Positions 1 through 12,891 of a stretch of 12,891 bases of DNA are shown one piece after another. The stretch is from Candidatus Nanohalobium sp. (GTDB taxonomy: Archaea; Nanohalarchaeota; Nanosalinia; Nanosalinales; Nanosalinaceae). The stretch's first letter is position 1; the number at the start of each line of letters is the position of its first letter. The notes under the pieces are model-generated. The model had not been told where the DNA came from. It saw only the letters and a list, made by a program, of their open reading frames with translations, and made no database searches. Position numbers and translations under genes: made by a program. The stretch spans positions 1 to 12,891 of the forward strand of contig JBDGSM010000052.1 of the NCBI GenBank assembly GCA_042217545.1, in the 5' to 3' direction.

Positions 1-666
1 CAAGGCCTTTTCTATTCCAGCGGTTCCCGTAATGTTTTTGACTTCGACGCGCTGGCCTCCGTCGATGGAGATGTTCGCATCGGACTTGATGGAGAACTCG
101 GATTCAGGGAAGTAGATCTCCAGGTATTCGAGCATCTGGGCCAGTTGCTGCAGGTAACTTCTTGCTTCCTTCGGAGATCTGAAATCCGGTGCGGTAACGA
201 TCTCGAGCAGCGGTGTGCCTGCCCTGTTGTAGTCCACTTTAGTATATTTTGAGCTTGAGATGCTTCCGCCTTCGTGTTTCATCTTCGCCGGGTCCTCCTC
301 AATGTGAAGCCTGTTGATTCCGATCTCCTTCTTCTCGTCTCCAGTCTTGACCTCTATAGTTCCGTCCTCTCCGACCGGTACCTCGTACTGGGTGATCTGG
401 TAGTTCTTCGACATATCCGGGTAGAAGTAGGTCTTCCTCGAGAAGAAGATGTCCTCGTTGATGTCGCACTGCAGGGCCTGAGATGTCTTCACCGCATATT
501 CTAAGACTTTCTCGTTTAGCCTTGGCTTTGAGCCTGGGTGTCCGAGACAGGTTTCACATACGTGCGTGTTTGGCTCCTCCGCTTCCTCATTGGGGCAGCC
601 GCAGAATAGCTTTGTCTCTGTATCAAGTTGTACGTGCGTCTCAAGGCCTATTTTTACATCGGTCAT
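1..666 (-). CDS. gatB: Asp-tRNA(Asn)/Glu-tRNA(Gln) amidotransferase subunit B (5' part; runs off window edge)
   Basis: Not in ORF track (no stop in window). Hand translation from ATG 666: MTDVKIGLETHVQLDTETKLFCGC...CETCLGHPGSKPRLN...FSRKTYFYPDMSKNYQITQY...RLHIEEDPAK...VDYNRAGTPLLEIVT...KSDANISI...RVEVKNI, which are canonical GatB motifs. Confidence 0.97.
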   Translation of the reverse strand, partial: MTDVKIGLETHVQLDTETKLFCGCPNEEAEEPNTHVCETCLGHPGSKPRLNEKVLEYAVKTSQALQCDINEDIFFSRKTYFYPDMSKNYQITQYEVPVGEDGTIEVKTGDEKKEIGINRLHIEEDPAKMKHEGGSISSSKYTKVDYNRAGTPLLEIVTAPDFRSPKEARSYLQQLAQMLEYLEIYFPESEFSIKSDANISIDGGQRVEVKNITGTAGIEKAL

Positions 667-692
667 AGTATCGTTTCGTTCAGTCATTCTTT

Positions 693-1886
693 TTATTTTG
701 ATCTCGTCGCGGCGAAGTAGGCCAGCTGTTCAAGAAGCATCTTCTCCTTACCATTGACCGGTGAGGCCTCGAGCTCGCCAGCTGCCTCTTCAGCGTAGCC
801 CCTTGCTTCGTCTTCCGCTCTCTTCAAAGCATCTGAGGACTCAACCATCTTACCGGCAAGCTTCAGTTCCCAGGCCTCAGGCTCCTTCTTCCTCAAAACA
901 TGCTTCAGAAACTTCCTGCTGGAACCGTACTCTGTCTCCAGCTCCTCCCTGCCGGAATCTTTATCAAGGCCTTCGATGAACTCCCTGTTCTTGGTGAATC
1001 CATCTTGAAGCTCCTGGATGGCGTAGTATACAGGCAGTGTGACAGTGCCTTCCAAAAGATCGGAGAACCTGTCCTTCCCTATCTCCTGTTCAAGGCCTTC
1101 CCCGGCCCCTATCTCCTCCTCGCCTCCGGTTATATCCAGGATGTCATCTCTGACCTGGAAAGCTTTACCTAACTGTTCTGCGTACTTTTTCAGGTTTCCA
1201 AGTTCTTTTCCTGAGATTACTTCGAGTATCCTGGGACCTGCCTTTATCAAAGGCGTGGTCTTCCTGGCTACGACTTCCTCGTAGAACTTCAGGTATTCAA
1301 AGCTTTCATCTTTCCCGGAAAGCATTTCCCTGAATTTCTCTCCCCGGTATATGCTTTCACCTGCTATGTCAAGCATCTGGCCACGCGAAATATCCTCTAG
1401 TACTCTGTCAAGTATTTCAGCAACTTCCATCTTCTTTTCGTGTTGAATATCAAGTTTCAGAACTGATCTCTGGACTATAGACTGCAGATGCATGACATCA
1501 AGGGTTGCCAGTGACTCTGCCTGTCTCCTGGAGAAACCTATTGACTTGAATTTTTCGTGAGGTGTTTCCAGGCCCCTCCTGACTTGATCCTGGTCCATTA
1601 CATCGTCCTGTATAAGTGAGAGGCCGTGTATAACTTCGAGAGGTATCAAAACTTTGAGAAGCTCTTCCTCAGATAGATCTATATCGAGGCCTTTCGCCAT
1701 GATGTATGGCACAGCGACGCGGAAACGTTTGCCGTCTCCCGTGATCAGCCTGCTGCAGTACTCTTCAACGGTGTTCAGGACTTCTATATCGGCTCCTGTC
1801 CTGTCAACTGTTTCGGCAAGAATTTTCTCTACTTTCTCCAGGGGTACGTAACCTGCCAGCTCCTGCTTCACCTTCTTATCTTCCAA
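693..1886 (-). CDS. Trans-isoprenyl diphosphate synthase (polyprenyl synthetase, GGPPS/IdsA-like family)
   Basis: GKRFR, first Asp-rich motif LIQDDVMDQDQVRRG, GQMLDI, KT, second motif AFQVRDDILD, DLLEGTVTLP. Start moved from track 1937 to the in-frame TTG at 1886, which follows an SD AGGTGAT and avoids a 44-nt overlap with gatA. Confidence 0.92.
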   Translation of the reverse strand: MEDKKVKQELAGYVPLEKVEKILAETVDRTGADIEVLNTVEEYCSRLITGDGKRFRVAVPYIMAKGLDIDLSEEELLKVLIPLEVIHGLSLIQDDVMDQDQVRRGLETPHEKFKSIGFSRRQAESLATLDVMHLQSIVQRSVLKLDIQHEKKMEVAEILDRVLEDISRGQMLDIAGESIYRGEKFREMLSGKDESFEYLKFYEEVVARKTTPLIKAGPRILEVISGKELGNLKKYAEQLGKAFQVRDDILDITGGEEEIGAGEGLEQEIGKDRFSDLLEGTVTLPVYYAIQELQDGFTKNREFIEGLDKDSGREELETEYGSSRKFLKHVLRKKEPEAWELKLAGKMVESSDALKRAEDEARGYAEEAAGELEASPVNGKEKMLLEQLAYFAATRSK

Positions 1887-1892
1887 AAAGTG

Positions 1893-1899
1893 ATCACCT
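1893..1899 (-). promoter_or_regulatory. Shine-Dalgarno (AGGTGAT) overlapping the gatA stop, upstream of the TTG start of the prenyl synthase
   Basis: Complementary to the archaeal 16S 3' end (AUCACCU); contains gatA TGA (1896-1894); 6 nt before TTG 1886. Confidence 0.7.
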
Positions 1900-3255
1900 G
1901 CTGTAGGTATACGCCACGTCAAGGACTTTTTCCTCATCGAAGTGATCGCCGATGATGTGAAGACCTGTCGGCATCTCCTTGCTGGTGCCGTTAGGAACTG
2001 AGATCATTGGTAACCCGGCAAGGTTAGGCCCTACTGTCAGGGTATCCATCGCGTAGACCTCCGCAGGACTCATATCCTGGGCTTCCTCTATCTTCGGTGC
2101 AATATTCGGCATCGAAGGAGAAACAAGTACATCGAACTCTTCAAAGGCCTCCTTGAACTGATTGATAATCTTTTGCCGGACTTCAGCGGCTTTGATGTAG
2201 TACTGATCCCTGTAACCGGCCATCCGCGTATACGTACCGAGCAGGATCCTTCTCTTCGCTTCCTCTCCGAAGCCTTCCGACCTGACCTCCGAGAAGTACT
2301 CGTTGAAGTCCTCGAAATCTTCAGGATCTTTCTCAAGGCCGTACCTCATACCTGACATCTTCGCCAGATTCGTCGAGGCCTCGGCCATCGCCAGAACGTA
2401 GTAAGCAGGAACTGCGTAATCTGCGGATAGAAGAGGCATATCGACTTTTTCTACTTCCGCTCCCATCTCTTTCAGTTCTTCAAGAGAATCTTCAAAGTTC
2501 TCTCTTACTCCGTCTTCAAGGCCTTCAAGCTCCAGGTACTGTTTCGGCACTCCTATCTTTAGGCCTTCTACTTCTTCAAGATTCGAGTATTTAGGTACTT
2601 CTTTTTTCGCTGTGGTCTGATCGTTTTCGTCTTCACCTGCTATCACTTCAAGGCCTTTTGCTGCACCGTACACGTTTTTTGCGAGGACACCGATCTTGTC
2701 CAGTGAGTTAGCATAGTCCACCAGTCCGTACCTTGACACGCGTCCGTATGTAGGTGTTATCCCTACTACGCCGTTGTAAGCTGCAGGATTTGTTATGGAT
2801 CCTCCTGTGGATTCTCCTATCGATATGATCGGATGGTCTACTGCGGCAACGATCGCTCCTGCGCCACCTGAACTTCCTCCTACGACTCTTTCCGGGTCAT
2901 GCGGGTTCTTCGGTGTTGTGAATGCGTTGTTGGTTGAGAAGGTTCCGAAGCCGAACTCATCCTGCTCCGTCTTTCCGAAGAACTGGCCTCCTGCCTCTTT
3001 CAGTCGTTTGACGACTGTGGCGTCGAATACAGGCCTGTAGTCTTCAAGTATCTTTGAACCTGCTGCGGTAGTCGTTCCCTCTGTGCAGATCGCGTCTTTA
3101 ACTACGAAAGGTATGTTTTCGAGCTCTCCCTGATGCTGCTCGCCACGTTTGACCTCTCGCATCAGATCGTATTTCTTATCTGCTTCCTTCAGCTCCTCAA
3201 GAAACTTCTTGCTGTCTACTTCCTCATCTCCCTTGACAACTTTCTCAACCGACAT
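1894..3255 (-). CDS. gatA: Asp-tRNA(Asn)/Glu-tRNA(Gln) amidotransferase subunit A
   Basis: Amidase signature VVKD, GGSSGG, TGGS, PTYGRVSRYGL; GatA-specific AEASTNLA, RSEGFGEEAKRRILLGTY, YYIKA; clustered with gatB and gatC. Confidence 0.97.
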   Translation of the reverse strand: MSVEKVVKGDEEVDSKKFLEELKEADKKYDLMREVKRGEQHQGELENIPFVVKDAICTEGTTTAAGSKILEDYRPVFDATVVKRLKEAGGQFFGKTEQDEFGFGTFSTNNAFTTPKNPHDPERVVGGSSGGAGAIVAAVDHPIISIGESTGGSITNPAAYNGVVGITPTYGRVSRYGLVDYANSLDKIGVLAKNVYGAAKGLEVIAGEDENDQTTAKKEVPKYSNLEEVEGLKIGVPKQYLELEGLEDGVRENFEDSLEELKEMGAEVEKVDMPLLSADYAVPAYYVLAMAEASTNLAKMSGMRYGLEKDPEDFEDFNEYFSEVRSEGFGEEAKRRILLGTYTRMAGYRDQYYIKAAEVRQKIINQFKEAFEEFDVLVSPSMPNIAPKIEEAQDMSPAEVYAMDTLTVGPNLAGLPMISVPNGTSKEMPTGLHIIGDHFDEEKVLDVAYTYSR

Positions 3256-3278
3256 ATCTTCCGTGTTCGGAGGAGAAC

Positions 3279-3286: not shown

Positions 3287-3287
3287 T

Positions 3288-3422
3288 TCATTTCCCGGCT
3301 TCGTCCTCTTCAACGCATTCATCGATATGGAACGTCTGGCCGCATTCAGTACATGTAGGGAAGAGAGGCCTGTATCCCTTGAAAGCCATCTGTCCCCCGC
3401 ATTCAGGACAGAAATAGGTCAT
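3288..3422 (-). CDS. 44-aa CPxCG-type zinc-finger micro-protein
   Basis: Below ORF-track cutoff. MTYFCPECGGQMAFKGYRPLFPTCTECGQTFHIDECVEEDEAGK: two CxxCG knuckles, acidic tail, and an ATGA overlap (3422-3419) with the upstream gene's stop. Confidence 0.88.
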   Translation of the reverse strand: MTYFCPECGGQMAFKGYRPLFPTCTECGQTFHIDECVEEDEAGK

Positions 3423-3913
3423 GAGGCCTCGATCCTGTGAAACTCCAGTTCACGGTTTTCAGTATCCATTGTCGCGACATGAAACCTTTCCTCCTGATCA
3501 GGAAATCTGATGCCGCCAGGATTCACCTCTACCGTTCCAGAATGCTCGGCAACCTTCTTCTCATGTGTGTGACCGCGGAACACGAAGTCGTAATCTTTCC
3601 CCACAAGGCCTTCCACAATCTCCTCCTCGGTCCCGTGGTAGACGCAGATTTTCAGGCCTTCAACTTCCAGTTCTGCGATGTTGTTGTAGAACTCTCCGAA
3701 CTGGTTCACCGTCGATTTCAGGTTCCATTCTCCATCGTTGTTGCCTCTGACAGCGTGGAACTCGAACTCTGCGTCAAAAAGCTCTGCTGTGAAAGGCGCA
3801 ACCATGTCTCCGCAGTGAATCACTACTTCACATTCCTGCTTCTCGAAAAAGTTTACTGCTTCCTCCGCTAGTTCGATGTTATCGTGTGTGTCCGAGACTA
3901 TTCCAAGTTTCAT
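3419..3913 (-). CDS. Calcineurin-like metallophosphoesterase (MJ0936/YfcE/Vps29 family)
   Basis: SDTHDN, HCGD, VRGNND, YHG, GHTH and NPG motifs. ATG 3913 (MKLGIVSDTH) preferred over track TTG 3919. Confidence 0.93.
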   Translation of the reverse strand: MKLGIVSDTHDNIELAEEAVNFFEKQECEVVIHCGDMVAPFTAELFDAEFEFHAVRGNNDGEWNLKSTVNQFGEFYNNIAELEVEGLKICVYHGTEEEIVEGLVGKDYDFVFRGHTHEKKVAEHSGTVEVNPGGIRFPDQEERFHVATMDTENRELEFHRIEAS

Positions 3914-3983: not shown

Positions 3984-4205
3984 CTAGGTGAATGTCATTT
4001 TTCCCTTCCGATCGTAGTAGTTTTCAAGAAGTTCTTCTTCCGTCATATCAAGGACTGCTGAGAACCCGTCGTTCTCTATTTTTTCACCCAGTTCCCCGAC
4101 CCTGACTCCTTCCACATCAGTGGCCTTGAACGAGTAGGCCGTGCCTTTGAGATCCCTGTAGATGTCCCTGCTGTCTAGCTCGGTTATGTCGTTGCAGACG
4201 TACTC
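3984..4205 (-). pseudogene. Out-of-frame C-terminal continuation (73 codons) of the 4184..4786 gene
   Basis: Open frame EYVCNDITELDSRDIYRDLKGTAYSFKATDVEGVRVGELGEKIENDGFSAVLDMTEEELLENYYDRKGKMTFT*. It is acidic and protein-like, has no start codon near its 5' end, and overlaps the end of the upstream ORF in the -1 frame. Confidence 0.75.
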
Positions 4206-4786
4206 TCAGCCATGATCCTTACTAGTGATTCGTCTATCCCTTTCAGGCCTGCTGCTTCAAAGAACCTTTCGTAGGCTTCCTCCCCGTACTCCTCCTGGAC
4301 ATAGTCAGCCTGGCGGAGAAGCAGGTCACGGTTGAAATCCGGGTTGACCCTGAAATCGTCCTCGCTCAACTGGAAAATCTGATTCAGAGTTTCGTGATCC
4401 AGATCTTTCAGCCATTCAGTAAGCATGCCTTCAGTCATCAACTCCCACATATCCCTGAAGTCGTACTCCAGCTCCGGGACATCAAAGTTATCCCTGAAGT
4501 AGGTATGTGAGGCTTCATGCACCTCTGTCTTCCTTTCCTCGATGCCTTTGAAGGAAAGGCTAGACAGATTGCCCTCCACCAATCTGTGGTTCTTATGGTC
4601 AAACTCGGGAAAGATCACGGACTTCCACTGATCCTCCCGGGGATCAAAATGACCGCTGCTGGCCGTCTCACCTACCACATCAATCTCGACTTCAGGAAGA
4701 ACATCCGTATCCACGCCGATCCAGTTGTAGAACCGCTTGACCTCGCCTTCAATAAAGTCCTCAGAAACATGGTAATCAGTATTCAA
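4184..4786 (-). CDS. Hypothetical zincin-like metallopeptidase (HExxH), apparently truncated by a frameshift
   Basis: EVHEASHTYF followed 24 residues later by an EG motif (LMTEGML) that could supply the third Zn ligand. TTG start at 4786 with SD GAGGTGG at 4797-4791. Confidence 0.7.
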   Translation of the reverse strand: MNTDYHVSEDFIEGEVKRFYNWIGVDTDVLPEVEIDVVGETASSGHFDPREDQWKSVIFPEFDHKNHRLVEGNLSSLSFKGIEERKTEVHEASHTYFRDNFDVPELEYDFRDMWELMTEGMLTEWLKDLDHETLNQIFQLSEDDFRVNPDFNRDLLLRQADYVQEEYGEEAYERFFEAAGLKGIDESLVRIMAESTSATT

Positions 4787-4802: not shown

Positions 4803-5081
4803 TCAGGCGCTCGGCCCTCTGAAAAAACCTTCCTCCTCGTTCTCCGTGTTCCGGAAGACCTTCTCCCTCGTCAGAGTATCTTCTTTCTCATCGCTTCTGG
4901 TATCAGGACTTACATCGACAGGATGGAAAGCAGGTTCAACATCTTCAGTATCGATCTCCTCCAGTTTCTCGAACATCTCCAGGACCTCATCGAAGTCCTC
5001 GGCGAACTCAGAGGCCTCTTCCCCAGTTACATTAATCCTGGCGTTCTCTGCCACTTCCTGAACTTTATCCGAATCTACCAT
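4803..5081 (-). CDS. gatC: Asp-tRNA(Asn)/Glu-tRNA(Gln) amidotransferase subunit C
   Basis: 92 aa: VAENARI, VLEMFEKLEEIDTEDVEP, RSD, EEGFFRGP, typical of GatC; same strand as gatA and gatB. Confidence 0.93.
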   Translation of the reverse strand: MVDSDKVQEVAENARINVTGEEASEFAEDFDEVLEMFEKLEEIDTEDVEPAFHPVDVSPDTRSDEKEDTLTREKVFRNTENEEEGFFRGPSA

Positions 5082-5211
5082 GAAGTTAAAGTTGAGACCT
5101 CAGATTTTTGTATCAATTTGTTTCCCCGAAGTGAAGGCCTTTCAGCTCTGAAAAACTTCTCGATGAACAGTCGTGAACAGTTAAGGTTTCCGAAAACTAT
5201 CGTCGAATTAT

Positions 5212-5507: not shown

Positions 5508-6584
5508 ATGGAATCCATAATCGAAAACGCTCAAACGGACGAAAAATCCACTGAAAACCTTGATGAAATGAAAGATGCTAAAATTATAGTAGTAGGAGTT
5601 GGAGGAGCTGGTAACAACCAGGTCACCAGGATACAGAAGAAAGAAGTTGAAGGTGCCGAGACGGTTGCCATCAACACGGACAAACAGCACCTGGAGATGT
5701 CCTCCGCCGACAGAAAAATACTTGTAGGAAAAGATCTTACACGAGGCCTCGGAGCTGGCGGCAAACCTGAGAAAGGAGCACGCTCAGCAGAAGAGAACCG
5801 TGCCGAACTACGTAACCTGTTCAAGGATGCAGACATGGTCTTCCTCACAGCAGGAATGGGAGGCGGAACAGGAACAGGAGCAGCACCAGTCCTCGCAGAA
5901 ATTGCAAAGAAAGAAGACTGCATCGTGATCGGAACAGTAACAATGCCGTTCGAGATCGAAGGCGCAAGAATGAGTAAAGCAGAAGACGGCCTCTACAGGC
6001 TCAGGCAGCACGTGGACACAGCAATCGTCATCGAAAACGACAAGCTGCTTGACATCGCAGGAGATATGCCTCTCGACCAGGCCTTCGGAGTCGCAGATGA
6101 GCTCATCACAACGATGATCAAGGGAATCACGGAAACGATCGCAAAGCCGTCACTAGTCAACCTGGACTACGCAGACGTCCAGGCGATCATGAACGAAGGA
6201 GGAGTCGCGGTAGTAGGCTACGGAGAAAGCGACACCAACAACAAGGGAGAGGAAGCAATCCACGAAGCACTATCCAACCCACTCCTCGACGTAGAGTTCA
6301 GCGGAGCAAACGGAGCACTCCTACACGTGGCAGGAGGAGAAGACCTGACACTCAACGAGATCAACGATGTAGGTCAGAGAGTGAAACAGAAGCTTGACAA
6401 ACAGGCCCAGGTAATCTGGGGCGCAAGAATCAGAGACGACCTGAAAGGCAAGCTACAGGTAATCTCCATCGTAACAGGAGTTGAATCACCTTACGTCCTA
6501 GGCGACCTAGACGAACAGAAAGAACAGGAAACAGAAGTAACAGGAGACGTCAACGACCTAGGCCTTGAGGTGATGAACGGCTGA
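5508..6584 (+). CDS. ftsZ: Cell division protein FtsZ (archaeal FtsZ2-like)
   Basis: GVGGAGNN, AINTD, GLGAGG, signature GMGGGTGTG, T7 loop PSLVNLDYAD. The LDYAD, GGVAV and IWGARI motifs resemble FtsZ2; C-terminal LGLEVM tail. Confidence 0.98.
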   Translation: MESIIENAQTDEKSTENLDEMKDAKIIVVGVGGAGNNQVTRIQKKEVEGAETVAINTDKQHLEMSSADRKILVGKDLTRGLGAGGKPEKGARSAEENRAELRNLFKDADMVFLTAGMGGGTGTGAAPVLAEIAKKEDCIVIGTVTMPFEIEGARMSKAEDGLYRLRQHVDTAIVIENDKLLDIAGDMPLDQAFGVADELITTMIKGITETIAKPSLVNLDYADVQAIMNEGGVAVVGYGESDTNNKGEEAIHEALSNPLLDVEFSGANGALLHVAGGEDLTLNEINDVGQRVKQKLDKQAQVIWGARIRDDLKGKLQVISIVTGVESPYVLGDLDEQKEQETEVTGDVNDLGLEVMNG

Positions 6585-6795: not shown

Positions 6796-6870
6796 TTACT
6801 CTTTATTACTAACTCCTTCCCAAAGATCCAGGGAAAACTGTTTAACTCTTCGGCCGTAATAACAAATTCA

Positions 6871-7371: not shown

Positions 7372-7449
7372 GGCCTTTCTGGCTTTGTTTTGAGAGCTGT
7401 TGTGTTGTGTTCCTCAAGTATTTAATTTTTCCCGCACCCTTTGTTTTGT

Positions 7450-7953
7450 ATGAAGGCTCCAATCTGTAATGTATGTCTAAAGAGCGATGTTCTCTGCAGC
7501 AAGTGTGGGGAGAAGCTGGAAAACGGAGAGATCTCAGAACTCGAAATCGAAGTATCAAGGATCCTGAAGGATCTAAGCAGTGAGTACGGCTCACTGAGAG
7601 ACTCAGAGATCCTTCACGTCTACGACACTGAAAATGTCGTCATCATAGTAACTGCAGAAGGCGACGGAGCAAAAGTCGTAGGCAGAAGCGGCGAGATCGT
7701 CAAAAAGGTCGCGGAAGAGATTGACAAGTCGATCAGAGTAGTCGAGAAAAGCGAGGACGACAGAGATGTTATCAAAGGCCTTTTGAGCCCTGCTGAAGTT
7801 GAAAGTATCAACACAGTCTTCAGTCCAGAGGGCGAGTACAAGAAGGTCGTCGTCAGCGACGAGTACGAGGGCAAGATCAACCTCAGTGAAGACGAGTTCG
7901 AAGAGATCATCGAAGAGATCACAGACACCAAGTACGAACTCTCCTTCGAATAA
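7450..7953 (+). CDS. Archaeal NusA-like protein with N-terminal Zn-binding motif and KH domain
   Basis: MKAPICNVCLKSDVLCSKC (CxxC-x6-CxxC); KH loop VVGRSGEIVKKV...IRVVE. ATG 7450 with TATTTAAT at 7419-7426. Confidence 0.88.
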   Translation: MKAPICNVCLKSDVLCSKCGEKLENGEISELEIEVSRILKDLSSEYGSLRDSEILHVYDTENVVIIVTAEGDGAKVVGRSGEIVKKVAEEIDKSIRVVEKSEDDRDVIKGLLSPAEVESINTVFSPEGEYKKVVVSDEYEGKINLSEDEFEEIIEEITDTKYELSFE

Positions 7954-8056
7954 AGCATCGCTCACAGATCTCTCAACTTTTCTTTTTCCTATTGAAGGCC
8001 TTCAACGCTTTCTGGCTGCGGTCGGTATTAAAATTCTTCAGGTAAACTTTCTAGAT

Positions 8057-9883
8057 ATGACGACAGACAAAAACAGCAAAAGTTTTATCGTGGCGATCGA
8101 CCAGGAGAAGATCGAGCCAGACCTGGCCCGGGAGACAGTAGTCAAGTACGATCCACTGAACAGGGCAGGAAAAGAGGGAGGTTTCCACGTAACGGAGGAA
8201 GGACAGCTCCACATCGACAACGAGAAGGTGATGGAGGCCCACAAGATGGCTATAAACAAGTACCCTCATGAAGGAGCCATCAAACTTATCCGGCTTGACA
8301 GGGAGTTCGGGGAGAAGATCCACCAGTTCGGGGAAAACGCTTTCCGACTGTACGGACTACCGGAACCGCAGGAAGGCCGCGTAGTGGGAATCCTCGGAAG
8401 AAACGGAATCGGAAAATCCACCGCACTAAAAATACTATCCGGCGACATCAAGCCGAACCTCGGAAACTATGAGGACGCTCCTGACTGGAAGAAGATTCAG
8501 GAAGAATACAGAGGGACAGGCCTCCAGGAACACTTCAACAAGCTAGCGGAAGGAAACGTAGAGGCCTCCTATAAACCGCAGCAGGTGGACAAGATACCAG
8601 AGTTCCACGACGGAGAAGTAGGAGAACTCCTGGAGAAAGCGGACGAGAAAGACGCAGCGGAGAAGTTCGCTGAAAAACTTGACATCGACCATCTACTGGA
8701 CAGGGATATCGACGAGCTTTCAGGAGGAGAGCTGCAGAGAGTGGCGATCGCATCCTGCCTCGTAAAAGATTCTTCTATTTATGTAATCGACGAGCCTTCC
8801 TCATTCCTGGACGTTAAACAGCGTCTGAACGTGGGAAGAGCGATCCAGGAACTTGGAGAGGAGAAGAGTGTTCTAGTGGTAGAGCACGACCTGGCGACTC
8901 TGGACCTGGTCTCCTCGGCGATCCACGTCTTCCACGGAGAGCCGGGAGCATACGGAATGGTGTCGAACGCATTAAGCACCAGAGAGGGAATCAACCAGTA
9001 CCTCGAAGGCTACCTGAAGACACACAACCTGAGAATAAGAGACGACTCCATAAGCTTTGACAGGACGAAGAGAAGCCAGGTGGAGAAGAAAGCTGAAACA
9101 CTGAGCTTCCCTGAGATGAAGAAGAACTTTGGGGAAGACGAGTTCCAGCTAGAGACAGAAGCCGGTGCACTACACGAAGAAGAGATACTCGCGATATTCG
9201 GAGAGAACGGGGTCGGAAAGACCACTTTCGCAAAGATGCTCGCAGGCGCCCTGAAGCCTGAAGAAGGCGAGACACCTGAGGCCTCGGTCAGCTACAAAGC
9301 GCAATATCTAGAAGCAAAGGACGAAAGAGTCGACACCGCGATCAGCAAACATGTCAACCCTGAGTCGAAGAAGTTCAAGGCCAGGATCGCAGAACCGTTA
9401 GGCCTTGAAGACCTGTACGAACAGAACCTGCAGGAACTTTCCGGAGGAGAGCTACAGCGCGTAGGAATCGCGATCTGCCTCGCAAGAGAAGCGGACGTTT
9501 ATCTCCTGGACGAGCCATCAGCCTATCTGGATGTCGAATCCCGTGTAGAGCTAGGTAAGGCCCTGAAACGGTTCGCGAGAAAGACGGAAAAGCCGCTCAT
9601 GGTTATCGACCACGACCTCCTCCTTCTCGACTACATCGCGGACAGGGGAATGGTCTTCACAGGAGAACCAGGAAAAAGCGGGAAGACCACCGAGCCATTG
9701 AAGATCGAAGAGGCGATGAACGAGTTCCTGAAAGAAGTCGACATCACCTTCAGAAGAGACCCTGAGACCGGAAGGCCTCGCGCCAACAAGTCTGGTAGCC
9801 AGAAAGACAAAGAGCAGAGGAAGAACGACGAGTTCTACGAACAGAAAGCACTGAAGAAAAACAGTGATGACGACGATGAATAG
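8057..9883 (+). CDS. rli: Ribosome recycling ATPase ABCE1/Rli1 (N-terminal FeS-type domain lacks cysteines)
   Basis: FRLYGLPEP, Walker A GRNGIGKST and GENGVGKTT, two LSGGELQR signatures, DEPS Walker B, EHD/DHD H-loops, hinge TFRRDPETGRPRANK. Start moved to ATG 8057 (TATTAAAA at 8026-8033); the track's extension is a low-complexity off-frame overlap with the upstream gene. Confidence 0.97.
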   Translation: MTTDKNSKSFIVAIDQEKIEPDLARETVVKYDPLNRAGKEGGFHVTEEGQLHIDNEKVMEAHKMAINKYPHEGAIKLIRLDREFGEKIHQFGENAFRLYGLPEPQEGRVVGILGRNGIGKSTALKILSGDIKPNLGNYEDAPDWKKIQEEYRGTGLQEHFNKLAEGNVEASYKPQQVDKIPEFHDGEVGELLEKADEKDAAEKFAEKLDIDHLLDRDIDELSGGELQRVAIASCLVKDSSIYVIDEPSSFLDVKQRLNVGRAIQELGEEKSVLVVEHDLATLDLVSSAIHVFHGEPGAYGMVSNALSTREGINQYLEGYLKTHNLRIRDDSISFDRTKRSQVEKKAETLSFPEMKKNFGEDEFQLETEAGALHEEEILAIFGENGVGKTTFAKMLAGALKPEEGETPEASVSYKAQYLEAKDERVDTAISKHVNPESKKFKARIAEPLGLEDLYEQNLQELSGGELQRVGIAICLAREADVYLLDEPSAYLDVESRVELGKALKRFARKTEKPLMVIDHDLLLLDYIADRGMVFTGEPGKSGKTTEPLKIEEAMNEFLKEVDITFRRDPETGRPRANKSGSQKDKEQRKNDEFYEQKALKKNSDDDDE

Positions 9884-10121
9884 AGAGAAAATAGATATCG
9901 ATAGAGGAGACAACGACATCGTCTTCGTAAGGCCTGAACTCGACATGGAGGACGTATCAGAGAAAGAAGACCCGAGAAACTTTCTTGAAGAAAAGATGAA
10001 ACAGGAAGGCCTTGAATGGGAGAACGCCCGGATAATAGGCCTGTTCCAGGACGAGTTCACACTGATGCTGGACACCAAAGGAAAGGTCCTGCTCGACGGC
10101 GAAGAAGTATACAGCCACTGA
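9876..10121 (+). CDS. Hypothetical acidic protein (~81 aa)
   Basis: MNREKIDIDRGDNDIVFVRPELD...; overlaps the ABCE1 stop, has an SD-like AGTGAT at 9863-9868, and matches host composition. ATG 9867 is an alternative start. Confidence 0.8.
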   Translation: MNREKIDIDRGDNDIVFVRPELDMEDVSEKEDPRNFLEEKMKQEGLEWENARIIGLFQDEFTLMLDTKGKVLLDGEEVYSH

Positions 10122-10160
10122 CCAAAAGGCCTACAAGTTTTTCGGTTCGAAACACTTTCT

Positions 10161-11084
10161 ATGACAGACTGGACCGCAGACGACATGCCGGATCTCAAAG
10201 GTAAAACCGTTATCGTTACAGGAGCTAACTCAGGCCTAGGATTCGAAGCTACAAAGGAACTCGCCCGGAAAGGCGCAAATGTAACGATGGCATGCAGGAG
10301 CATCGAACGCGGGAAAAACGCGAAAGAAGAGATAGAGAAAGAAATTCCCGGGGCCTCTCTCGAGGTAAGACAGCTTGATCTTGCAAGCCTTGAATCGATC
10401 GACGAGTTTGCGGAAGAGTACAAGGCCAACCATGAAGAACTCGATATACTCTGCAACAACGCAGGCCTCATGAACATTCCAAGACAGGAAACGGAGGACG
10501 GCTTCGAAAAACAGTTCGGCGTAAACCACCTCGGACACTTCGCACTAACATCAAAACTTCTCCCAGTACTGAAGAAAGCCGAAGAGGCAAGGATCGTGAC
10601 ACAGAGCTCAGGCCTCCATGAGAGAGGAAGAATCAACTTCAACGATCTTATGAAAGAGGGAAAATATGATTCAGGACAGGCCTACGCAGACTCAAAGCTG
10701 GCCAACGTCCTGTTCGCCTACGAACTTGACAGGAAGATCAGGAGGGAAGGCCTCGACATGAAATCGGTCGCTGCCCACCCCGGTTTCGCAGCCACGAACC
10801 TTCAGAACGCCGAGGAGAACGATAACTTCTTCCTGAAAGAGCTCGGTATGAAGGCCTTCACGAAAATCTTTGCACAGAGTGCTGCCAAAGGCGCTCTGCC
10901 TATGCTATACGCTGCGTCGGCTTCATATGTTGAAGGCGGCGAATACATCGGGCCAGGAGGTCTGATGAATATGAGAGGTCTTCCAGAGAAACAGGAAAGT
11001 TCAGAGGCCTCTTATGACACAGAGACGGCTGAAGAGCTGTGGGCTGTAAGCGAGGAGTTGACAGGCCTGAGTTTTGAGGTCTAG
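10161..11084 (+). CDS. Short-chain dehydrogenase/reductase (retinol dehydrogenase/WWOX-like subgroup)
   Basis: TGANSGLG, LDLAS, NNAG, FGVNHLGHFALT, catalytic YADSK, HPG, LWAVSEELTG. Confidence 0.96.
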   Translation: MTDWTADDMPDLKGKTVIVTGANSGLGFEATKELARKGANVTMACRSIERGKNAKEEIEKEIPGASLEVRQLDLASLESIDEFAEEYKANHEELDILCNNAGLMNIPRQETEDGFEKQFGVNHLGHFALTSKLLPVLKKAEEARIVTQSSGLHERGRINFNDLMKEGKYDSGQAYADSKLANVLFAYELDRKIRREGLDMKSVAAHPGFAATNLQNAEENDNFFLKELGMKAFTKIFAQSAAKGALPMLYAASASYVEGGEYIGPGGLMNMRGLPEKQESSEASYDTETAEELWAVSEELTGLSFEV

Positions 11085-11437
11085 CTTAATGTGCCTCGCC
11101 ACAGGTCGAGGCCTGGAATACTCAGGTATGTTTCCTCGTTTGCGCTGAGGTAGAAAAGTGGTTCTTGATCCTGTTCGACAGCTACTTTCAGGTCTCCGCC
11201 GTCTATCTCCATGTACTGCTGGACGTTTTCCTCTCCGCCGAAGGAGTCTACAAGGCGTTCGTATCTGTCACCCAGATCTGTCTTCCACTTCATCTCGGTA
11301 TCATCCGGGTAGGAGATCTCTGCACGCCCCATGACCTGCAGCTGGCTTCTCACCTGTTCTGTGTCTGTAGGCCTCAAAGATTCACGTACAACGCTCCAGT
11401 TATCCCCCGGCTCCCAGCTATTCCTTGAAATGTACAT
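11081..11437 (-). CDS. Hypothetical protein (~118 aa)
   Basis: Acidic ORF filling the gap between SDR and Nudix genes; its stop overlaps the convergent SDR stop in CTAG (11081-11084). ATG 11437 preferred over TTG 11446. Confidence 0.8.
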   Translation of the reverse strand: MYISRNSWEPGDNWSVVRESLRPTDTEQVRSQLQVMGRAEISYPDDTEMKWKTDLGDRYERLVDSFGGEENVQQYMEIDGGDLKVAVEQDQEPLFYLSANEETYLSIPGLDLWRGTLS

Positions 11438-11510
11438 AGGAAACAATTAACGGCAAAAATCTAAAAGAGAACCGGCACACCTAAAAAATTCTACACAGCA
11501 AAAGCTTTCC

Positions 11511-12461
11511 ATGGACAAAGTTCCCGTCTCAAAAGGCCTGATAGAGAACGAAAACGGAGAGTTCCTGATGCTGAAGAAAGCCGAAGACTACGACTTCACA
11601 GCAGGAAAATGGGAACAGCCAGGTGGACGCATCCAGAAACTGGATGCTCCTAACAGCATCTCTGCTGGAGATGCGGATGGAAAGATAGAGGAAAGGGAAA
11701 ACCGGTTCGAAGCTTTGAAACGTGAAGTGAAGGAGGAGACAGGCCTTGAGATCGAAGAGTCTGAGGATCTTGTAAGGATCGAGCTGGAGGACGAAAACCA
11801 TATCAACTGCTACGTACTTCACAGCTCCGACTTTTCAGGCGAGATCGAACTCTCCGGGGAACACGAAGATTTCTGCTGGGTAAGGCCTGAAAAGTTCTCC
11901 GAACTGGAATGGCATAGAGACTCCGCCTACATCCTTCCCCCGGGACGTTACTGCGAGAAATACCTGAAAGACGAGAGAGATTACGGTTCCGGCATGGAGA
12001 TCGCAGTCGTCAAGGCCCTGGTACAGAACGAGGAAGGAAAGTTCCTCGCTGTGAAGAAATCTGTTATAGAGAAGGTCTCCTCCGGCCAGCGGTTCAAAAA
12101 ATACGGCGACATGAGCGGGAAATGGGGGCTACCTGGCGGCAGGATAGGTAAAAGGAAAGATGAGGACCGGTTCGAGGCCCTGGGGCGGGAGCTGGCTGAG
12201 GAGCTTGGTATTGAAGTTTCTGGAGGCGTTGATGTTGTACGTGAGGAGATCGAGGAGGAGAACACTGTAGACGTGTTCATCGTCCTGTTAAGGCCTGATG
12301 ACTGGAGCGGTCAGGTCGAGCTTTCCGAGGAGCATTCAGCTTTTGAATGGGTGAGGCCTGATGAATACCTGGAACTGGACTGGCATAAGGACGCGGGCTA
12401 CGGTTACTCACCGATGAAGTTTCTGGACGAGTACAAGGATATGGATCTGCGGTATGAATGA
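11511..12461 (+). CDS. Tandem double-domain Nudix hydrolase
   Basis: Nudix boxes GKIEERENRFEALKREVKEETGL and GGRIGKRKDEDRFEALGRELAEELGI; each domain ends with LSxEHxxFxWVRP..LxWHxD. Confidence 0.94.
   Translation: MDKVPVSKGLIENENGEFLMLKKAEDYDFTAGKWEQPGGRIQKLDAPNSISAGDADGKIEERENRFEALKREVKEETGLEIEESEDLVRIELEDENHINCYVLHSSDFSGEIELSGEHEDFCWVRPEKFSELEWHRDSAYILPPGRYCEKYLKDERDYGSGMEIAVVKALVQNEEGKFLAVKKSVIEKVSSGQRFKKYGDMSGKWGLPGGRIGKRKDEDRFEALGRELAEELGIEVSGGVDVVREEIEEENTVDVFIVLLRPDDWSGQVELSEEHSAFEWVRPDEYLELDWHKDAGYGYSPMKFLDEYKDMDLRYE
11624..11681. mobile_element. 54-nt in-frame palindromic insertion bounded by a TGGA direct repeat
   Basis: TGGA at 11624-11627 and 11678-11681; terminal inverted repeat CGCATC/GATGCG; hairpins GCATCCAG-AAA-CTGGATGC and GCATCTC-TGCTG-GAGATGC. 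Removing 11628-11681 restores WEQPGGKIEERE. Confidence 0.62.
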
Positions 12462-12470
12462 CTGTTCAGG

Positions 12471-12476
12471 TTTTTT
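12471..12476 (+). terminator. Oligo-T tract after the Nudix gene (archaeal intrinsic terminator candidate)
   Basis: TTTTTT starts 10 nt after the TGA at 12459-12461. Confidence 0.4.
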
Positions 12477-12520
12477 CAACAGGATTTCGGATTTAAGTTT
12501 TTGATACAGTGTACAGGTTC

Positions 12521-12891
12521 ATGGGGGAATGGGGTGAACCGGTTAGAAGTTTTCTTAACGGCGACAACCCTTCTGATCCCTCTGATTTCGCCCGGTTGAT
12601 GGGCTCTAAAGTCCCGGGCTGGCATCCTTCTCAGGTTTCTCCTCCAAGCGGTGAAGAATCAGTCGACCGCGATCCGATGAGAGAAGGCGATGCACAGATG
12701 ATCGCGAATAGCTTTGAACGGATGGTCGCCGAGGATTACTCAGGAAAGAATATCAGCGACGGTAAGGACTCTGAAGGAGAGGCCGACGTCGTTGTAGGCC
12801 TTAACGACCGAGCTTACGGCTGGCCGATCCAGGTGAAGTCCTGTCTCATGTACAGGATGGACAGCAGTTCGGACAGAGGCTACAGGCCTGG
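12521..12891 (+). CDS. Putative PD-(D/E)XK superfamily nuclease (5' part; runs off window edge)
   Basis: Not in track. MGEWGEPVRSFLNGDNPSDP...IANSFERMVAEDYSGKNISDGKDSEGEADVVVGLNDRAYGWPIQVKSCLMYRMDSSSDRGYRP shows a helix-E ... AD-hhh ... hQhK pattern. TATA-like ATTTAAGT at 12491-12498. Confidence 0.65.
   Translation, partial: MGEWGEPVRSFLNGDNPSDPSDFARLMGSKVPGWHPSQVSPPSGEESVDRDPMREGDAQMIANSFERMVAEDYSGKNISDGKDSEGEADVVVGLNDRAYGWPIQVKSCLMYRMDSSSDRGYRP

What the first reader, a model, noticed from the sequence alone, without database searches (positions are those of the whole stretch)
3..12889. AGGCCT is a HIP1-like highly iterated palindrome (~58 copies, ~18x expectation)
Seen: about 58 exact copies by hand count, roughly one per 220 bp, against about 3 expected. 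It is read in all three frames (GAA GGC CTT = EGL at 10007, AAG GCC TTC = KAF at 10852, AGG CCT = RP at 11883) and also occurs outside genes (5135, 7996, 10127), so codon or peptide bias alone does not explain it. It is dense in the membrane gene (6 in 500 bp) and SDR (8 in 924 bp) and sparser in gatB, ftsZ and ABCE1. Known: prokaryotes usually avoid 6-bp palindromes, and cyanobacterial HIP1 is the classic exception, linked to methyltransferase sites; AGGCCT is the StuI site with a GGCC core. Inference: a genome-wide system (methylation-coupled mutation/repair, a chromatin or segregation protein site, or a recombination/uptake signal) maintains the motif. I do not recall a description of this in this lineage, but cannot search.
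Basis: partly seen in the sequence, partly recalled or inferred. Interest (0 to 1): 0.85.

Follow-up and report, generated by a model that had tools for sequence, protein, structure and literature searches.

The report
Hyper-abundant AGGCCT palindrome in nanohaloarchaea
This tiny salt-loving symbiotic archaeon spells the six-letter palindrome AGGCCT at about three quarters of all places where its proteins allow it, an unexplained DNA-level signature that resembles the cyanobacterial HIP1 word but comes without any matching methylase gene.

Summary
Confirmed and extended. The window holds 58 AGGCCT (3.4 expected). Its genome holds 3,699 (15x expectation), the commonest hexamer, present on all 82 contigs and equally dense in genes (all three phases) and spacers. 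About 75% of the places where the protein allows the word carry it. Every other synonymous spelling is depleted about five-fold (one-transition spellings 2.5-fold), so the whole word is favoured, not one mismatch type. The pressure has changed proteins, spares rRNA genes and foreign islands, and weakens within 50 bp of another copy. The word is rich in 13 of 70 genomes of the phylum, in at least three clades with word-poor sister lineages, and in 0 of 201 genomes of another DPANN phylum. No methylase family is shared: 10 of 13 rich genomes lack all three families surveyed. Vsr was not found in 31 relatives, nor ComEC in 50 family genomes. Nine clade-specific candidate genes failed the co-occurrence test, and the AddB-like nuclease tree does not unite the rich clades. 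This is a HIP1-like iterated palindrome without the methylase link, and its reader is unknown. The scan had already found this word in other nanohaloarchaeal genomes. I found no paper describing it.

The parts
3..8 (.). AGGCCT copy; gatB (partial), phase 1, KAL
644..649 (.). AGGCCT copy; gatB, phase 2, IGL
764..769 (.). AGGCCT copy; polyprenyl synthetase, phase 1, EAS
872..877 (.). AGGCCT copy; polyprenyl synthetase, phase 1, EAW
967..972 (.). AGGCCT copy; polyprenyl synthetase, phase 2, EGL
1093..1098 (.). AGGCCT copy; polyprenyl synthetase, phase 2, EGL
1687..1692 (.). AGGCCT copy; polyprenyl synthetase, phase 2, KGL
2145..2150 (.). AGGCCT copy; gatA amidase, phase 1, EAF
2376..2381 (.). AGGCCT copy; gatA, phase 1, EAS
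2519..2524 (.). AGGCCT copy; gatA, phase 2, EGL
2561..2566 (.). AGGCCT copy; gatA, phase 2, EGL
2651..2656 (.). AGGCCT copy; gatA, phase 2, KGL
3031..3036 (.). AGGCCT copy; gatA, phase 0, RP
3366..3371 (.). AGGCCT copy; intergenic
3424..3429 (.). AGGCCT copy; metallophosphoesterase, phase 1, EAS
3606..3611 (.). AGGCCT copy; metallophosphoesterase, phase 2, EGL
3654..3659 (.). AGGCCT copy; metallophosphoesterase, phase 2, EGL
4245..4250 (.). AGGCCT copy; unknown ORF 4184-4786, phase 2, AGL
5012..5017 (.). AGGCCT copy; gatC, phase 1, EAS
5135..5140 (.). AGGCCT copy; intergenic
5744..5749 (.). AGGCCT copy; ftsZ, phase 2, RGL
6079..6084 (.). AGGCCT copy; ftsZ, phase 1, QAF
6560..6565 (.). AGGCCT copy; ftsZ, phase 2, LGL
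6963..6968 (.). AGGCCT copy; unknown membrane ORF 6739-7371, phase 2, RGL
7110..7115 (.). AGGCCT copy; membrane ORF, phase 2, SGL
7158..7163 (.). AGGCCT copy; membrane ORF, phase 2, IGL
7194..7199 (.). AGGCCT copy; membrane ORF, phase 2, GGL
7260..7265 (.). AGGCCT copy; membrane ORF, phase 2, IGL
7308..7313 (.). AGGCCT copy; membrane ORF, phase 2, VGL
7371..7376 (.). AGGCCT copy; starts on the last base of ORF 6739-7371, otherwise intergenic
7776..7781 (.). AGGCCT copy; NusA-like KH gene, phase 2, KGL
7996..8001 (.). AGGCCT copy; intergenic, upstream of the likely ABCE1 start
8518..8523 (.). AGGCCT copy; ABCE1, phase 2, TGL
8562..8567 (.). AGGCCT copy; ABCE1, phase 1, EAS
9279..9284 (.). AGGCCT copy; ABCE1, phase 1, EAS
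9400..9405 (.). AGGCCT copy; ABCE1, phase 2, LGL
9773..9778 (.). AGGCCT copy; ABCE1, phase 0, RP
9930..9935 (.). AGGCCT copy; small ORF 9864-10121, phase 0, RP
10007..10012 (.). AGGCCT copy; small ORF, phase 2, EGL
10037..10042 (.). AGGCCT copy; small ORF, phase 2, IGL
10127..10132 (.). AGGCCT copy; intergenic
10232..10237 (.). AGGCCT copy; SDR gene, phase 2, SGL
10463..10468 (.). AGGCCT copy; SDR, phase 2, AGL
10610..10615 (.). AGGCCT copy; SDR, phase 2, SGL
10678..10683 (.). AGGCCT copy; SDR, phase 1, QAY
10748..10753 (.). AGGCCT copy; SDR, phase 2, EGL
10852..10857 (.). AGGCCT copy; SDR, phase 1, KAF
11005..11010 (.). AGGCCT copy; SDR, phase 1, EAS
11063..11068 (.). AGGCCT copy; SDR, phase 2, TGL
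11109..11114 (.). AGGCCT copy; unknown ORF 11081-11446 (-), phase 2, PGL
11369..11374 (.). AGGCCT copy; unknown ORF 11081-11446 (-), phase 0, RP
11534..11539 (.). AGGCCT copy; NUDIX gene, phase 2, KGL
11741..11746 (.). AGGCCT copy; NUDIX, phase 2, TGL
11883..11888 (.). AGGCCT copy; NUDIX, phase 0, RP
12291..12296 (.). AGGCCT copy; NUDIX, phase 0, RP
12354..12359 (.). AGGCCT copy; NUDIX, phase 0, RP
12796..12801 (.). AGGCCT copy; unknown ORF 12509-12889 (partial), phase 2, VGL
12884..12889 (.). AGGCCT copy; unknown ORF (partial), phase 0, RP

Best explanation
AGGCCT is a highly iterated palindrome kept up by a force that acts on double-stranded DNA as such. SHOWN: any stretch that spells the whole hexamer is favoured over any stretch that does not. 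The strength is about the same in synonymous positions (odds ratio 30) and in spacers (19), and it applies to all classes of resident genes. It is strong enough to change amino acids, and is limited only by hard constraint (rRNA), by recent arrival of the DNA (islands), and by another copy within about 50 bp. INFERRED: the advantage is a transmission bias (molecular drive) rather than a benefit of each copy. An unidentified factor reads the symmetric word, probably as a dimer. It biases recombinational repair or gene conversion among genome copies or cells, or biases which DNA is taken in and recombined, so that word-bearing alleles replace word-less ones. Mutation, protein constraint and this bias balance at about 75% occupancy. 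It is not a canonical DNA methylase with Vsr-type repair.
For: Whole-word advantage: among 2,145 conserved Arg-Pro, [EK]-Gly-Leu and [EK]-Ala-[SFY] peptides, 1,712 use the word against 251 expected. One-transversion, two-change and three-change spellings are all at 0.18-0.20 of expectation, and one-transition spellings are at 0.40. One strength fits all DNA: ln odds 3.4 in synonymous positions and 3.0 in spacers, with 3.46 copies per kb in genes and 3.97 per kb outside. Occupancy is 0.77 in genes with homologues in all three compared genomes (G003, G011, part of G018) and 0.69 in genes with none, and is unaffected by the next copy beyond 50 bp. The two genomes use conserved opportunities almost independently (observed/expected joint use 1.02-1.08), as in a dynamic balance rather than a fixed set of functional sites. 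Foreign low-GC islands and rRNA genes lack the word. Proteins are reshaped: 1.3-1.9 times more opportunity peptides than in orthologues of poor genomes. Distribution is patchy: 13 of 70 genomes, three rich clades on the AddB-like tree, and the G000 and G003 lineages separated by poor lineages on a three-gene tree. Density is bimodal: 9 loci at 1.9-4.9 per kb, 2 at 0.7-0.8 and 69 below 0.5. Methylase families are rarer in rich than in poor genomes and no Vsr was found.
Against: No reader was found. Nine clade-specific candidate genes failed the co-occurrence test. The AddB-like nuclease subunit does not group the rich lineages. ComEC is not found in any of the 50 family genomes. Nothing here measures a conversion or uptake bias directly. 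The reads available were contigs with only 3 differences carried at full depth (plus 6 minor-variant positions), so there are no polymorphism data. The drop in use near another copy (0.49 at 6-15 bp against about 0.78 beyond 50 bp) is explained more simply by a bound protein whose second site adds little, that is, by function. In very large populations weak selection on each of 3,700 sites could also give ln odds of about 3. For HIP1, Xu et al. 2018 (abstract read) argued for selection rather than biased repair.
Confidence: 0.4

Rival explanations
1. Each copy is a working binding site. An abundant sequence-specific protein (nucleoid organiser, segregation or condensation factor, or a 'self' mark that stops a nuclease, as Chi stops AddAB/RecBCD) binds AGGCCT, and weak selection in a very large population keeps nearly every permissive position occupied.
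For: Use of an opportunity falls when another copy lies within 50 bp (0.49, 0.59, 0.69 against about 0.78). Pairs closer than 30-50 bp are under-represented in G000 and G003, like a footprint. Flank preferences are weak, symmetric and the same in genes and spacers (-1 A>G>C>>T, +1 T>C>G>>A, -3 T, +3 A), as expected for a dimeric reader. Foreign islands lack the word, as a self mark would predict. A bacterial-type AddAB-like helicase-nuclease operon exists in these genomes. The HIP1 literature favours selection (abstract).
Against: Beyond 50 bp use does not depend on the distance to the next copy. Spacing is near-exponential (CV 0.95) and the variance/mean ratio is 0.94 per kb in G003, so there is no sign of a needed density or regular spacing. 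10-90 kb periodicity is not robust (p 0.014 against bin permutation, 0.205 against block permutation). No DNA-binding protein follows the trait: HxlR, ArsR and SWIM are all present in word-poor G061. AddAB-like genes are also in word-poor G011, and the AddB-like tree splits the rich lineages into three clades. Known Chi sites are asymmetric and far less enriched (recalled).
Confidence: 0.3
2. Elhai's HIP model applies. A DNA methylase of a family not recognised here methylates AGGCCT or its GGCC core, and a methylation-dependent mismatch repair creates and maintains the word.
For: It is the only published model for highly iterated palindromes, and alternate HIPs go with cognate methylases (abstract of PMC4390886). 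AGGCCT is a real methylase and restriction target elsewhere: in Alcanivorax borkumensis almost all of 1,674 sites are methylated (passages of PMC12128166). 58% of all GGCC in the genome lie inside the word, while other NGGCCN contexts are at 0.17-1.74 of expectation. About a third of nanohaloarchaeal genes have no assigned function (passage of PMC10266531).
Against: Of 13 rich genomes, PF01555 is in 1, PF00145 in 1 and PF02384 in 2, and 10 have none of the three, including closed G001 and G057. Among the 37 other family genomes these families are in 10, 14 and 9. PF02086 is in 0 of 5. Eco57I-type genes are broken in G001, absent from G000 and present in poor G011. G003's type I methylase sits in the largest word-free stretch of a low-GC island, so it arrived recently. 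Vsr is in 0 of 31. One-transition spellings, the products of cytosine deamination, are the least depleted class rather than the most. Deviations are not confined to the outer bases.
Confidence: 0.12
3. The excess is a by-product of codon, dipeptide or base composition, or an artefact of assembly or binning.
For: Phase 2 (x-Gly-Leu) dominates (1,485 of 2,999). The order-4 Markov ratio is only 1.11. Both ends of this contig carry a copy.
Against: The synonymous shuffle gives 569 (max 610 of 30) and codon permutation 281, against 2,999 observed. Spacers are as dense as genes. The order-4 null is uninformative because the pentamers AGGCC and GGCCT are themselves carried by the word. Only 8 of 164 contig ends carry a copy within 12 bases. 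By my arithmetic about 4 would be expected from the genome-wide density. Closed genomes (G001 part, G003) and independent metagenome contigs show the same excess. Syntenic DNA of a relative with 65-85% identical proteins has 1 copy in 11.2 kb.
Confidence: 0.01

Closest known systems
HIP1 (GCGATCGC) and alternate highly iterated palindromes of cyanobacteria (Elhai 2015, PMC4390886; Xu et al. 2018, PMC5861425)
   Same: A short GC-rich palindrome, 15-20 times over-represented genome-wide, in all frames and in spacers. It overrides codon choice, is lineage-restricted with close relatives lacking it, and its cause is unknown.
   Different: It is a hexamer, not an octamer, and far denser (one per 250-280 bp). 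It occurs in Archaea (DPANN symbionts). No cognate methylase is shared by the rich genomes. There is no bias of deviations towards the outer bases, no robust 10-90 kb periodicity, and positional conservation is almost fully explained by conserved peptides plus saturation.
DNA uptake sequences of competent bacteria (USS of Pasteurellaceae, DUS of Neisseriaceae); properties recalled, not taken from a call
   Same: A clade-specific word accumulated in genes and spacers on both strands. It reshapes the proteome and is thought to spread by a transmission bias (uptake plus recombination) rather than by a benefit of each copy.
   Different: USS and DUS are 9-12-base non-palindromic words at about one per kb with extended flanks, read by a known competence apparatus. 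Here the word is a 6-base palindrome at about 4 per kb, and ComEC (PF03772) is not found in any of the 50 family genomes.
Chi sites read by RecBCD/AddAB; properties recalled
   Same: A short over-represented word that marks resident DNA and is missing from foreign DNA. An AddAB-like operon is present here.
   Different: Chi is asymmetric, strand-skewed with replication and only a few-fold enriched. The AddB-like protein is also present in a word-poor genome, and its tree does not unite the rich lineages.
Very-short-patch repair with Dcm in E. coli (CCWGG enrichment, CTWGG depletion); recalled
   Same: A repair bias tied to a palindromic site that shifts oligonucleotide frequencies genome-wide.
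   Different: The effect there is small and specific to T:G mismatches. Here no Vsr or C5 methylase is shared, and transition neighbours are the least depleted class.

Membership tests
Highly iterated palindromes (HIP1 class) | Short palindromic word, at least about 15-fold over-represented genome-wide | tested here: met
   3,699 copies, O/E 15.1 (base composition) and 13.0 (first-order Markov), commonest hexamer, next palindrome 2.3. G003 19.6 and G001 part 19.1.
Highly iterated palindromes (HIP1 class) | Present in all reading frames and in non-coding DNA, not explained by codon or peptide bias | tested here: met
   Phases 510/1,004/1,485. 3.46 per kb in genes and 3.97 per kb outside. Synonymous shuffle 569 and codon permutation 281 against 2,999 observed.
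Highly iterated palindromes (HIP1 class) | Lineage-restricted, with close relatives that lack it | tested here: met
   13 of 70 genomes of the phylum. Within genus g2, 2 of 6. Syntenic 11.2 kb of G061 has 1 copy. 0 of 201 genomes of another DPANN phylum exceed 0.6 per kb.
Highly iterated palindromes (HIP1 class) | A methylase specific for the word or its core is present when the word is frequent (Elhai 2015, abstract) | tested here: not met
   10 of 13 rich genomes have no PF00145, PF01555 or PF02384. PF02086 in 0 of 5. No Eco57I-type gene is shared. Only known families could be tested, and methylation itself was not.
Highly iterated palindromes (HIP1 class) | One-base deviations biased to the first and last base (Elhai 2015, abstract) | tested here: not met
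   Neighbour O/E by position: 1/6 0.95-1.74, 2/5 0.80-1.41, 3/4 0.76-1.87. Among synonymous spellings, transitions stand at 0.40 and transversions at 0.18 of expectation.
Highly iterated palindromes (HIP1 class) | Sites conserved between genomes beyond background (Xu et al. 2018, abstract) | tested here: inconclusive
   63% of G000 sites are shared in position with G001 (background hexamer identity 21%) and 40% with G003 (12%). Joint use at conserved peptides is only 1.02-1.08 times the product of the two genomes' rates.
Highly iterated palindromes (HIP1 class) | Periodic distribution with periods of 10-90 kb (Xu et al. 2018, abstract) | tested here: inconclusive
   Closed G003: strongest period 52 kb. 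1.4% of bin permutations but 20.5% of 5-kb block permutations reach it.
DNA uptake sequences (USS/DUS) | Competence machinery that takes up DNA bearing the word | tested here: not met
   PF03772 (ComEC) in 0 of 50 family genomes, while the control rings in 10 of 14 known genomes. Other uptake routes were not tested.
DNA uptake sequences (USS/DUS) | Word accumulation alters protein sequences | tested here: met
   In aligned orthologues G000 against G011: RP 292 to 186, xGL 896 to 615, [KEQ]A[FSYCW] 435 to 227. Against G018: 240 to 189, 725 to 536, 391 to 206.
Chi-like recombination or self marker | Read by a RecBCD/AddAB-type helicase-nuclease whose variant goes with the word | tested here: not met
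   An AddB-like (865 aa, PD-(D/E)XK) plus AddA-like (907 aa, UvrD + nuclease) operon is present in G003 and G000, but also in poor G011. On a tree of 80 AddB-like proteins the rich loci form three separate clades with poor sisters.
Chi-like recombination or self marker | Asymmetric word with strand skew along replichores | tested here: not met
   The word is its own reverse complement, so no skew is possible.
Restriction-modification target site | Site avoided, or fully methylated by a cognate methylase next to a nuclease | tested here: not met
   The site is 15-fold enriched in G000 with no methylase found. By contrast G018 shows all NGGCCN depleted, and G017 and G051 have 73 and 97 copies with a similar C5 methylase.

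The most novel reading that the evidence does not exclude
AGGCCT is the target word of a horizontally mobile, methylase-independent 'genome-writing' system of archaea. Its reader makes double-strand-break repair or gene conversion among the genome copies of these cells favour word-bearing DNA, acting as a palindromic, self-propagating Chi-like mark. On entering a lineage it rewrites a one-megabase genome, proteins included, to about 75% saturation, and it marks resident against foreign DNA.
Probability: 0.2. Interest if true: 0.9.

Novelty: new variant of a known kind. Interest (0 to 1): 0.7.

Why it matters
The origin of highly iterated palindromes has been open for three decades, and the only model ties them to methylases. 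Here the same phenomenon appears in another domain of life, denser than HIP1 and apparently without the methylase. It has several independent on/off contrasts between close relatives in one-megabase genomes. That makes the cause findable by comparative genomics plus one methylome and one pull-down experiment. If the force is a transmission bias, it shows that a six-base word can reshape the proteome of a reduced symbiont genome. If the sites are functional, there is an unknown abundant DNA reader in DPANN archaea. In practice, word density separates resident from recently acquired DNA in these genomes and flags mis-binned contigs.

Tried and rejected
1. Candidate genes. I took G000 proteins with a homologue in rich G003 but none, or only a weak one, in poor G011 and the first 780 kb of G018: 41 + 24 proteins, plus 60 from the G003 side. 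Fifty-three of these, plus 31 proteins from the bit-score-ratio screen, were scanned against Pfam. I tested 9 of them against rich G043, G056 and G060, poor G061 and intermediate G040, or against all 50 family genomes. All 9 failed.
- SbcE/YhaN-like ATPase: also in poor G048 and G014, not found in g26 or g29.
- SWIM protein: in G061, not in closed rich G056.
- HxlR: in G061.
- YgjP-like: not in G043 or G060.
- Methyltransf_11: in G061.
- Unknown 243-aa protein: in G061, not in G043 or G056.
- MGMT/ATL-like: in G061.
- Unknown 183-aa protein: only in G060.
- ArsR with membrane tail: in all five.
2. AddAB-like nuclease as reader: see the membership test.
3. Proteins unusually similar between G000 and G003 relative to G011/G018 (bit-score ratio). 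The top 31 scanned are transporters, tRNA synthetases, redox enzymes and NUDIX proteins. Only the AddB-like protein is DNA-related.
4. Population variation. Only assembled contigs of two runs of one study hold the window. There are 3 differences carried at full depth and 6 minor-variant positions, none inside a copy, which is too few to say anything.
5. Viruses. The best cluster-collapsed density was about 1 per kb. The two most enriched for their composition were L255 (O/E 9.2) and L297 (7.1). At most one weak protein match (23% identity, locus L261) to G000 or G003 was found. No conclusion.
A three-gene tree of 8 taxa replaced it.
8. The order-4 Markov expectation (O/E 1.11) is rejected as a null because it contains the word's own pentamers.

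Full report
OBSERVATION. The window is a whole contig (G000:C48) of a 1,032,751-base, 82-contig genome. It holds exactly 58 AGGCCT. Dinucleotide-preserving shuffles give 3.42 (sd 1.76, largest 10), and 0 of 200 reach 58. With the gene map (ORFs, Pfam: gatB, polyprenyl synthetase, gatA, a metallophosphoesterase, gatC, ftsZ, a NusA-like KH protein, ABCE1, an SDR, a NUDIX protein and six ORFs without a family) the copies fall as 8 in phase 0 (Arg-Pro), 13 in phase 1, 32 in phase 2 and 5 between genes.

GENOME-WIDE. The genome has 3,699 copies, one per 279 bases. AGGCCT is the commonest of all 4,096 hexamers, at 15.1 times the base-composition expectation and 13.0 times a first-order Markov one. 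The next palindrome stands at 2.3. All 82 contigs carry it at 1.3-5.9 per kb. Contig ends are not special: 8 of 164 ends have a copy within 12 bases. The unit is the hexamer itself. 58% of all GGCC lie inside it, the other fifteen NGGCCN contexts are at 0.17-1.74, and the 18 one-base neighbours are at 0.76-1.87 of expectation. Flanks add little, but they are symmetric and the same in genes and spacers: -1 A>G>C>>T, +1 T>C>G>>A, -3 T, +3 A.

NOT CODON OR PEPTIDE BIAS. I used 991 crude ORF calls covering 84% of the genome. These are my own caller, so 'non-coding' includes some missed genes. Density is 3.46 per kb in genes and 3.97 per kb outside. Shuffling synonymous codons within genes gives 569 copies (30 shuffles, max 610) and permuting codons gives 281, against 2,999 observed. 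The genome is close to saturated. 510 of 678 Arg-Pro dipeptides are spelled AGGCCT (about 11% expected from codon use), as are 973 of 1,617 [KEQ]-Ala-[FLSYCW] (73-100% when the third residue is not Leu) and 1,485 of 2,037 x-Gly-Leu. Closed genome G003 gives 646 of 771, 1,185 of 1,356 and 1,468 of 2,065. As odds ratios the excess is 29.8 at synonymous opportunities and 19.3 in spacers. One strength therefore fits both kinds of DNA.

THE WHOLE WORD IS FAVOURED. Among 2,145 Arg-Pro, [EK]-Gly-Leu and [EK]-Ala-[SFY] peptides the word is used 1,712 times (251 expected). All other spellings are depleted alike: one transversion away 0.18, two changes 0.18, three changes 0.20 of expectation. One transition away is less depleted (0.40), as expected if that class is refilled by decay of the abundant word. 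A repair that corrects one kind of mismatch, such as Vsr-type T:G correction after deamination, would deplete transition neighbours most. The data show the opposite.

WHERE IT IS MISSING, AND SPACING. rRNA genes resist. The 16S has 1 copy in 1.5 kb (G003) and 0 in 1.2 kb (G000), and an 1.8-kb part of the 23S has 0 and 2, where 5-7 would be average. In G003 the low windows are low-GC islands. The longest word-free stretch (681,006-685,115) contains the type I methylase gene, and the Eco57I-type gene lies beside another low window. Gaps are near-exponential (CV 0.95). Pairs closer than about 50 bp (G000) or 30 bp (G003) are too few. An opportunity is used 49% of the time when another copy lies 6-15 bp away, 59% at 15-30 bp, 69% at 30-50 bp and about 78% beyond, with no further dependence on distance. 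Occupancy is 0.77 in genes with homologues in all three compared genomes (G003, G011 and the fetched part of G018) and 0.69 in genes with a homologue in none. A 10-90 kb periodicity like that of HIP1 is not robust in G003.

EFFECT ON PROTEINS AND TURNOVER. Median protein identity of G000 is 72% to G001, 62% to G003 and 59% to G011 and G018, so synonymous sites are saturated. Even so, 63% of G000 copies sit at the same aligned position in G001 (background hexamer identity 21%) and 40% do so in G003 (12%). Against poor G011 and G018 the figures are 2.8% and 0.4%. Where the peptide is conserved, each rich genome uses the word 74-91% of the time and almost independently of the other (joint use 1.02-1.08 times the product). 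In aligned orthologues G000 has 1.3-1.9 times more opportunity peptides than G011 or G018, the latter of equal GC. Residues under a copy are less conserved to the poor genomes (0.589 against 0.632, and 0.613 against 0.643). The word has therefore been written partly at the cost of amino-acid changes. The window itself shows this. The syntenic 11.2 kb of G061, with proteins 64-85% identical for seven of the eight matched window genes, has 1 copy. In 5,967 aligned bases G000 has 21 and G061 has 1. Only 7 of the 21 have the same peptide in G061, and G061 has 12 opportunity peptides against 23.

DISTRIBUTION. All 70 genomes held for the phylum were counted.
- Twelve have 2.0-4.8 copies per kb: genus g1 3 of 3, g26 4 of 5, g29 3 of 3, g2 2 of 6.
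- One, G040 of g26, is intermediate (0.95 per kb).
- The rest have 32-892 copies per genome, like the control word.
- ABCE1 identity to G000 does not follow the trait: poor G061 77%, rich G056 75%, rich G003 69%, rich g26 59-63%.
- On a gatA+FtsZ+ABCE1 tree (1,415 columns, 8 taxa) G000 and the rich record L163 are sister to poor G061 and L168, and rich G003 groups with poor G011 and L169.
- Eighty metagenome contigs encoding an AddB-like protein split into 9 rich (1.9-4.9 per kb; opportunity use 0.61-0.72), 2 intermediate (0.7-0.8; 0.15) and 69 poor (below 0.5).
- On the AddB-like tree the rich ones form three well-supported clades, each with poor sisters.
- In 201 genomes of the phylum of a Woesearchaeota record none exceeds 0.6 per kb.
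The same word has thus been switched on, or off, at least three times, and intermediates are rare.

SEARCH FOR A READER. Methylases:
- Among the 31 nearest genomes, PF00145 and convincing PF01555 hits are missing from all four rich ones. Vsr is missing from all 31.
- Over the 50 genomes of the family, PF01555 is in 1 of 13 rich and 10 of 37 others, PF00145 in 1 and 14, and PF02384 in 2 and 9. Ten rich genomes, among them closed G001 and G057, have none.
- PF02086 is in 0 of 5 (G000-G003 and G011). Eco57I-type genes are interrupted in G001, absent from G000 and present in poor G011.
- ComEC is in 0 of 50.
Nine clade-specific genes, and then the AddAB-like operon, failed the co-occurrence or tree test (see Tried and rejected).

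HOW IT MOST LIKELY WORKS. Shown: a frame-blind, strand-blind preference for the complete double-stranded hexamer. Its population-scaled strength is about 3 everywhere in resident DNA. It is opposed by mutation and protein or RNA constraint, is absent from newly arrived DNA, interferes with itself over 30-50 bp, and is lost or gained between close relatives. Inferred: because use does not depend on local density beyond 50 bp and the unoccupied sites differ between genomes, I favour a transmission bias. This would be biased gene conversion or recombinational repair among genome copies or cells, or biased uptake, set by an unidentified symmetric reader that moves horizontally. I give this 0.4. 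Working binding sites of an abundant protein explain the short-range interference better and get 0.3. A methylase of an unrecognised family gets 0.12. Nothing here measures binding, methylation or conversion.

COMPARISON AND NOVELTY. The closest known thing is HIP1 and the alternate HIPs of cyanobacteria (abstracts and outlines of PMC4390886 and PMC5861425, plus one passage of PMC4390886). Three defining features are met, two are not (cognate methylase, outer-base deviation bias) and two are inconclusive. Recent work links HIP1 to transformation and a type IV secretion system. For those two papers I saw only the search listing (10.1101/2024.09.10.611283 and PMC13756078). Methylome papers on another nanohaloarchaeon report only GDGCHC methylation (passages of PMC10266531 and PMC11001535). 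A survey of archaeal restriction-modification does not mention the word (passages of PMC10609329). Searches for AGGCCT with nanohaloarchaea, for Nanohaloarchaeota with palindrome and over-represented, and for Nanosalina with StuI found no description. Subscription papers, and supplements I did not open, are not covered. This scan had already reported the same word in other nanohaloarchaeal genomes. Those notes agree with mine and name no cause.
- the phylum-wide census and the metagenome census;
- the polyphyly on two trees;
- the family-wide methylase survey;
- the whole-word spelling test;
- the single strength for genes and spacers;
- the short-range interference;
- ten rejected candidates.

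LIMITS. Gene calls are my own crude ORF caller. G018 and G001 were only partly fetched. Genome sizes of relatives are rounded by the tool, so densities for them are approximate. Rich and poor groups are not independent samples. MAG completeness is 68-99%, so a missing gene in one bin proves little. The closed genomes G001, G003, G056 and G057 carry most of the weight.

Noticed in passing
G003 (L039/L040) 498837-504147; G000 contig C17 39063-44359; G011 (L098) 15098-17779 and 19347 onward: A bacterial-type AddAB-like operon in nanohaloarchaea: an 865-aa PD-(D/E)XK protein followed by a 907-aa UvrD-helicase-plus-nuclease protein. It has 80 relatives on hypersaline metagenome contigs. Such end-resection machines are unusual for archaea.
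   Followed up: partly
G017, G051, G018 (handles): The opposite extreme occurs in the same family. G018 has 55 copies with every NGGCCN context depleted (TGGCCA 0.07, GGGCCC 0.05). G017 (73) and G051 (97) carry similar 338-340-aa C5 methylases. This looks like ordinary avoidance of a GGCC-type restriction site.
   Followed up: partly
G003 670000-690000 (L048, L049): A low-GC (40-43%) island with 11 and 18 copies per 10 kb against a mean of 39. It holds the type I methylase gene (683444-684397) inside a 4.1-kb word-free stretch. Word density marks recently acquired DNA.
   Followed up: partly
G000 contig C17 12296-14677: A 2.4-kb word-free stretch coincides with two adjacent genes that by eye (not scanned against Pfam) resemble a geranylgeranyl-reductase and a UPP-synthase. 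They are 72-73% identical to G003 and have no homologue in G011 or G018, so they may be a recent transfer.
   Followed up: no
G000 contig C12 128-3116: A membrane-anchored SbcE/YhaN-like AAA ATPase (655 aa) next to a metallophosphoesterase (343 aa). It is found in only 6 of 50 family genomes at convincing E-values (a seventh, G068, only at 9.5e-6), so it is a patchy double-strand-break repair pair.
   Followed up: partly
window 7799-8038: The 694-aa ORF that contains ABCE1 starts at a TTG about 80 codons upstream of where all homologues begin to align. It overlaps the NusA-like KH gene (7441-7953), so the real start is probably near 8039.
   Followed up: partly
L162 (G061) and G003 on the tree: G061 and G003 bear the same genus code, yet on the gatA+FtsZ+ABCE1 tree G061 groups with G000 (support 95) and G003 groups with G011 (support 100). 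Either these three genes do not follow the species tree or the genus is heterogeneous.
   Followed up: no
L255 and L297 (viral contigs): Two low-GC (36-37%) viral contigs carry AGGCCT at 7-9 times their composition expectation after collapsing clusters. They have no protein match to G000 or G003. Their hosts are unknown.
   Followed up: partly
G040, G053, G010; L184, L198: A few genomes and contigs are intermediate (0.6-1 copy per kb, opportunity use 0.15). They are either mixed bins or lineages caught while gaining or losing the word.
   Followed up: no
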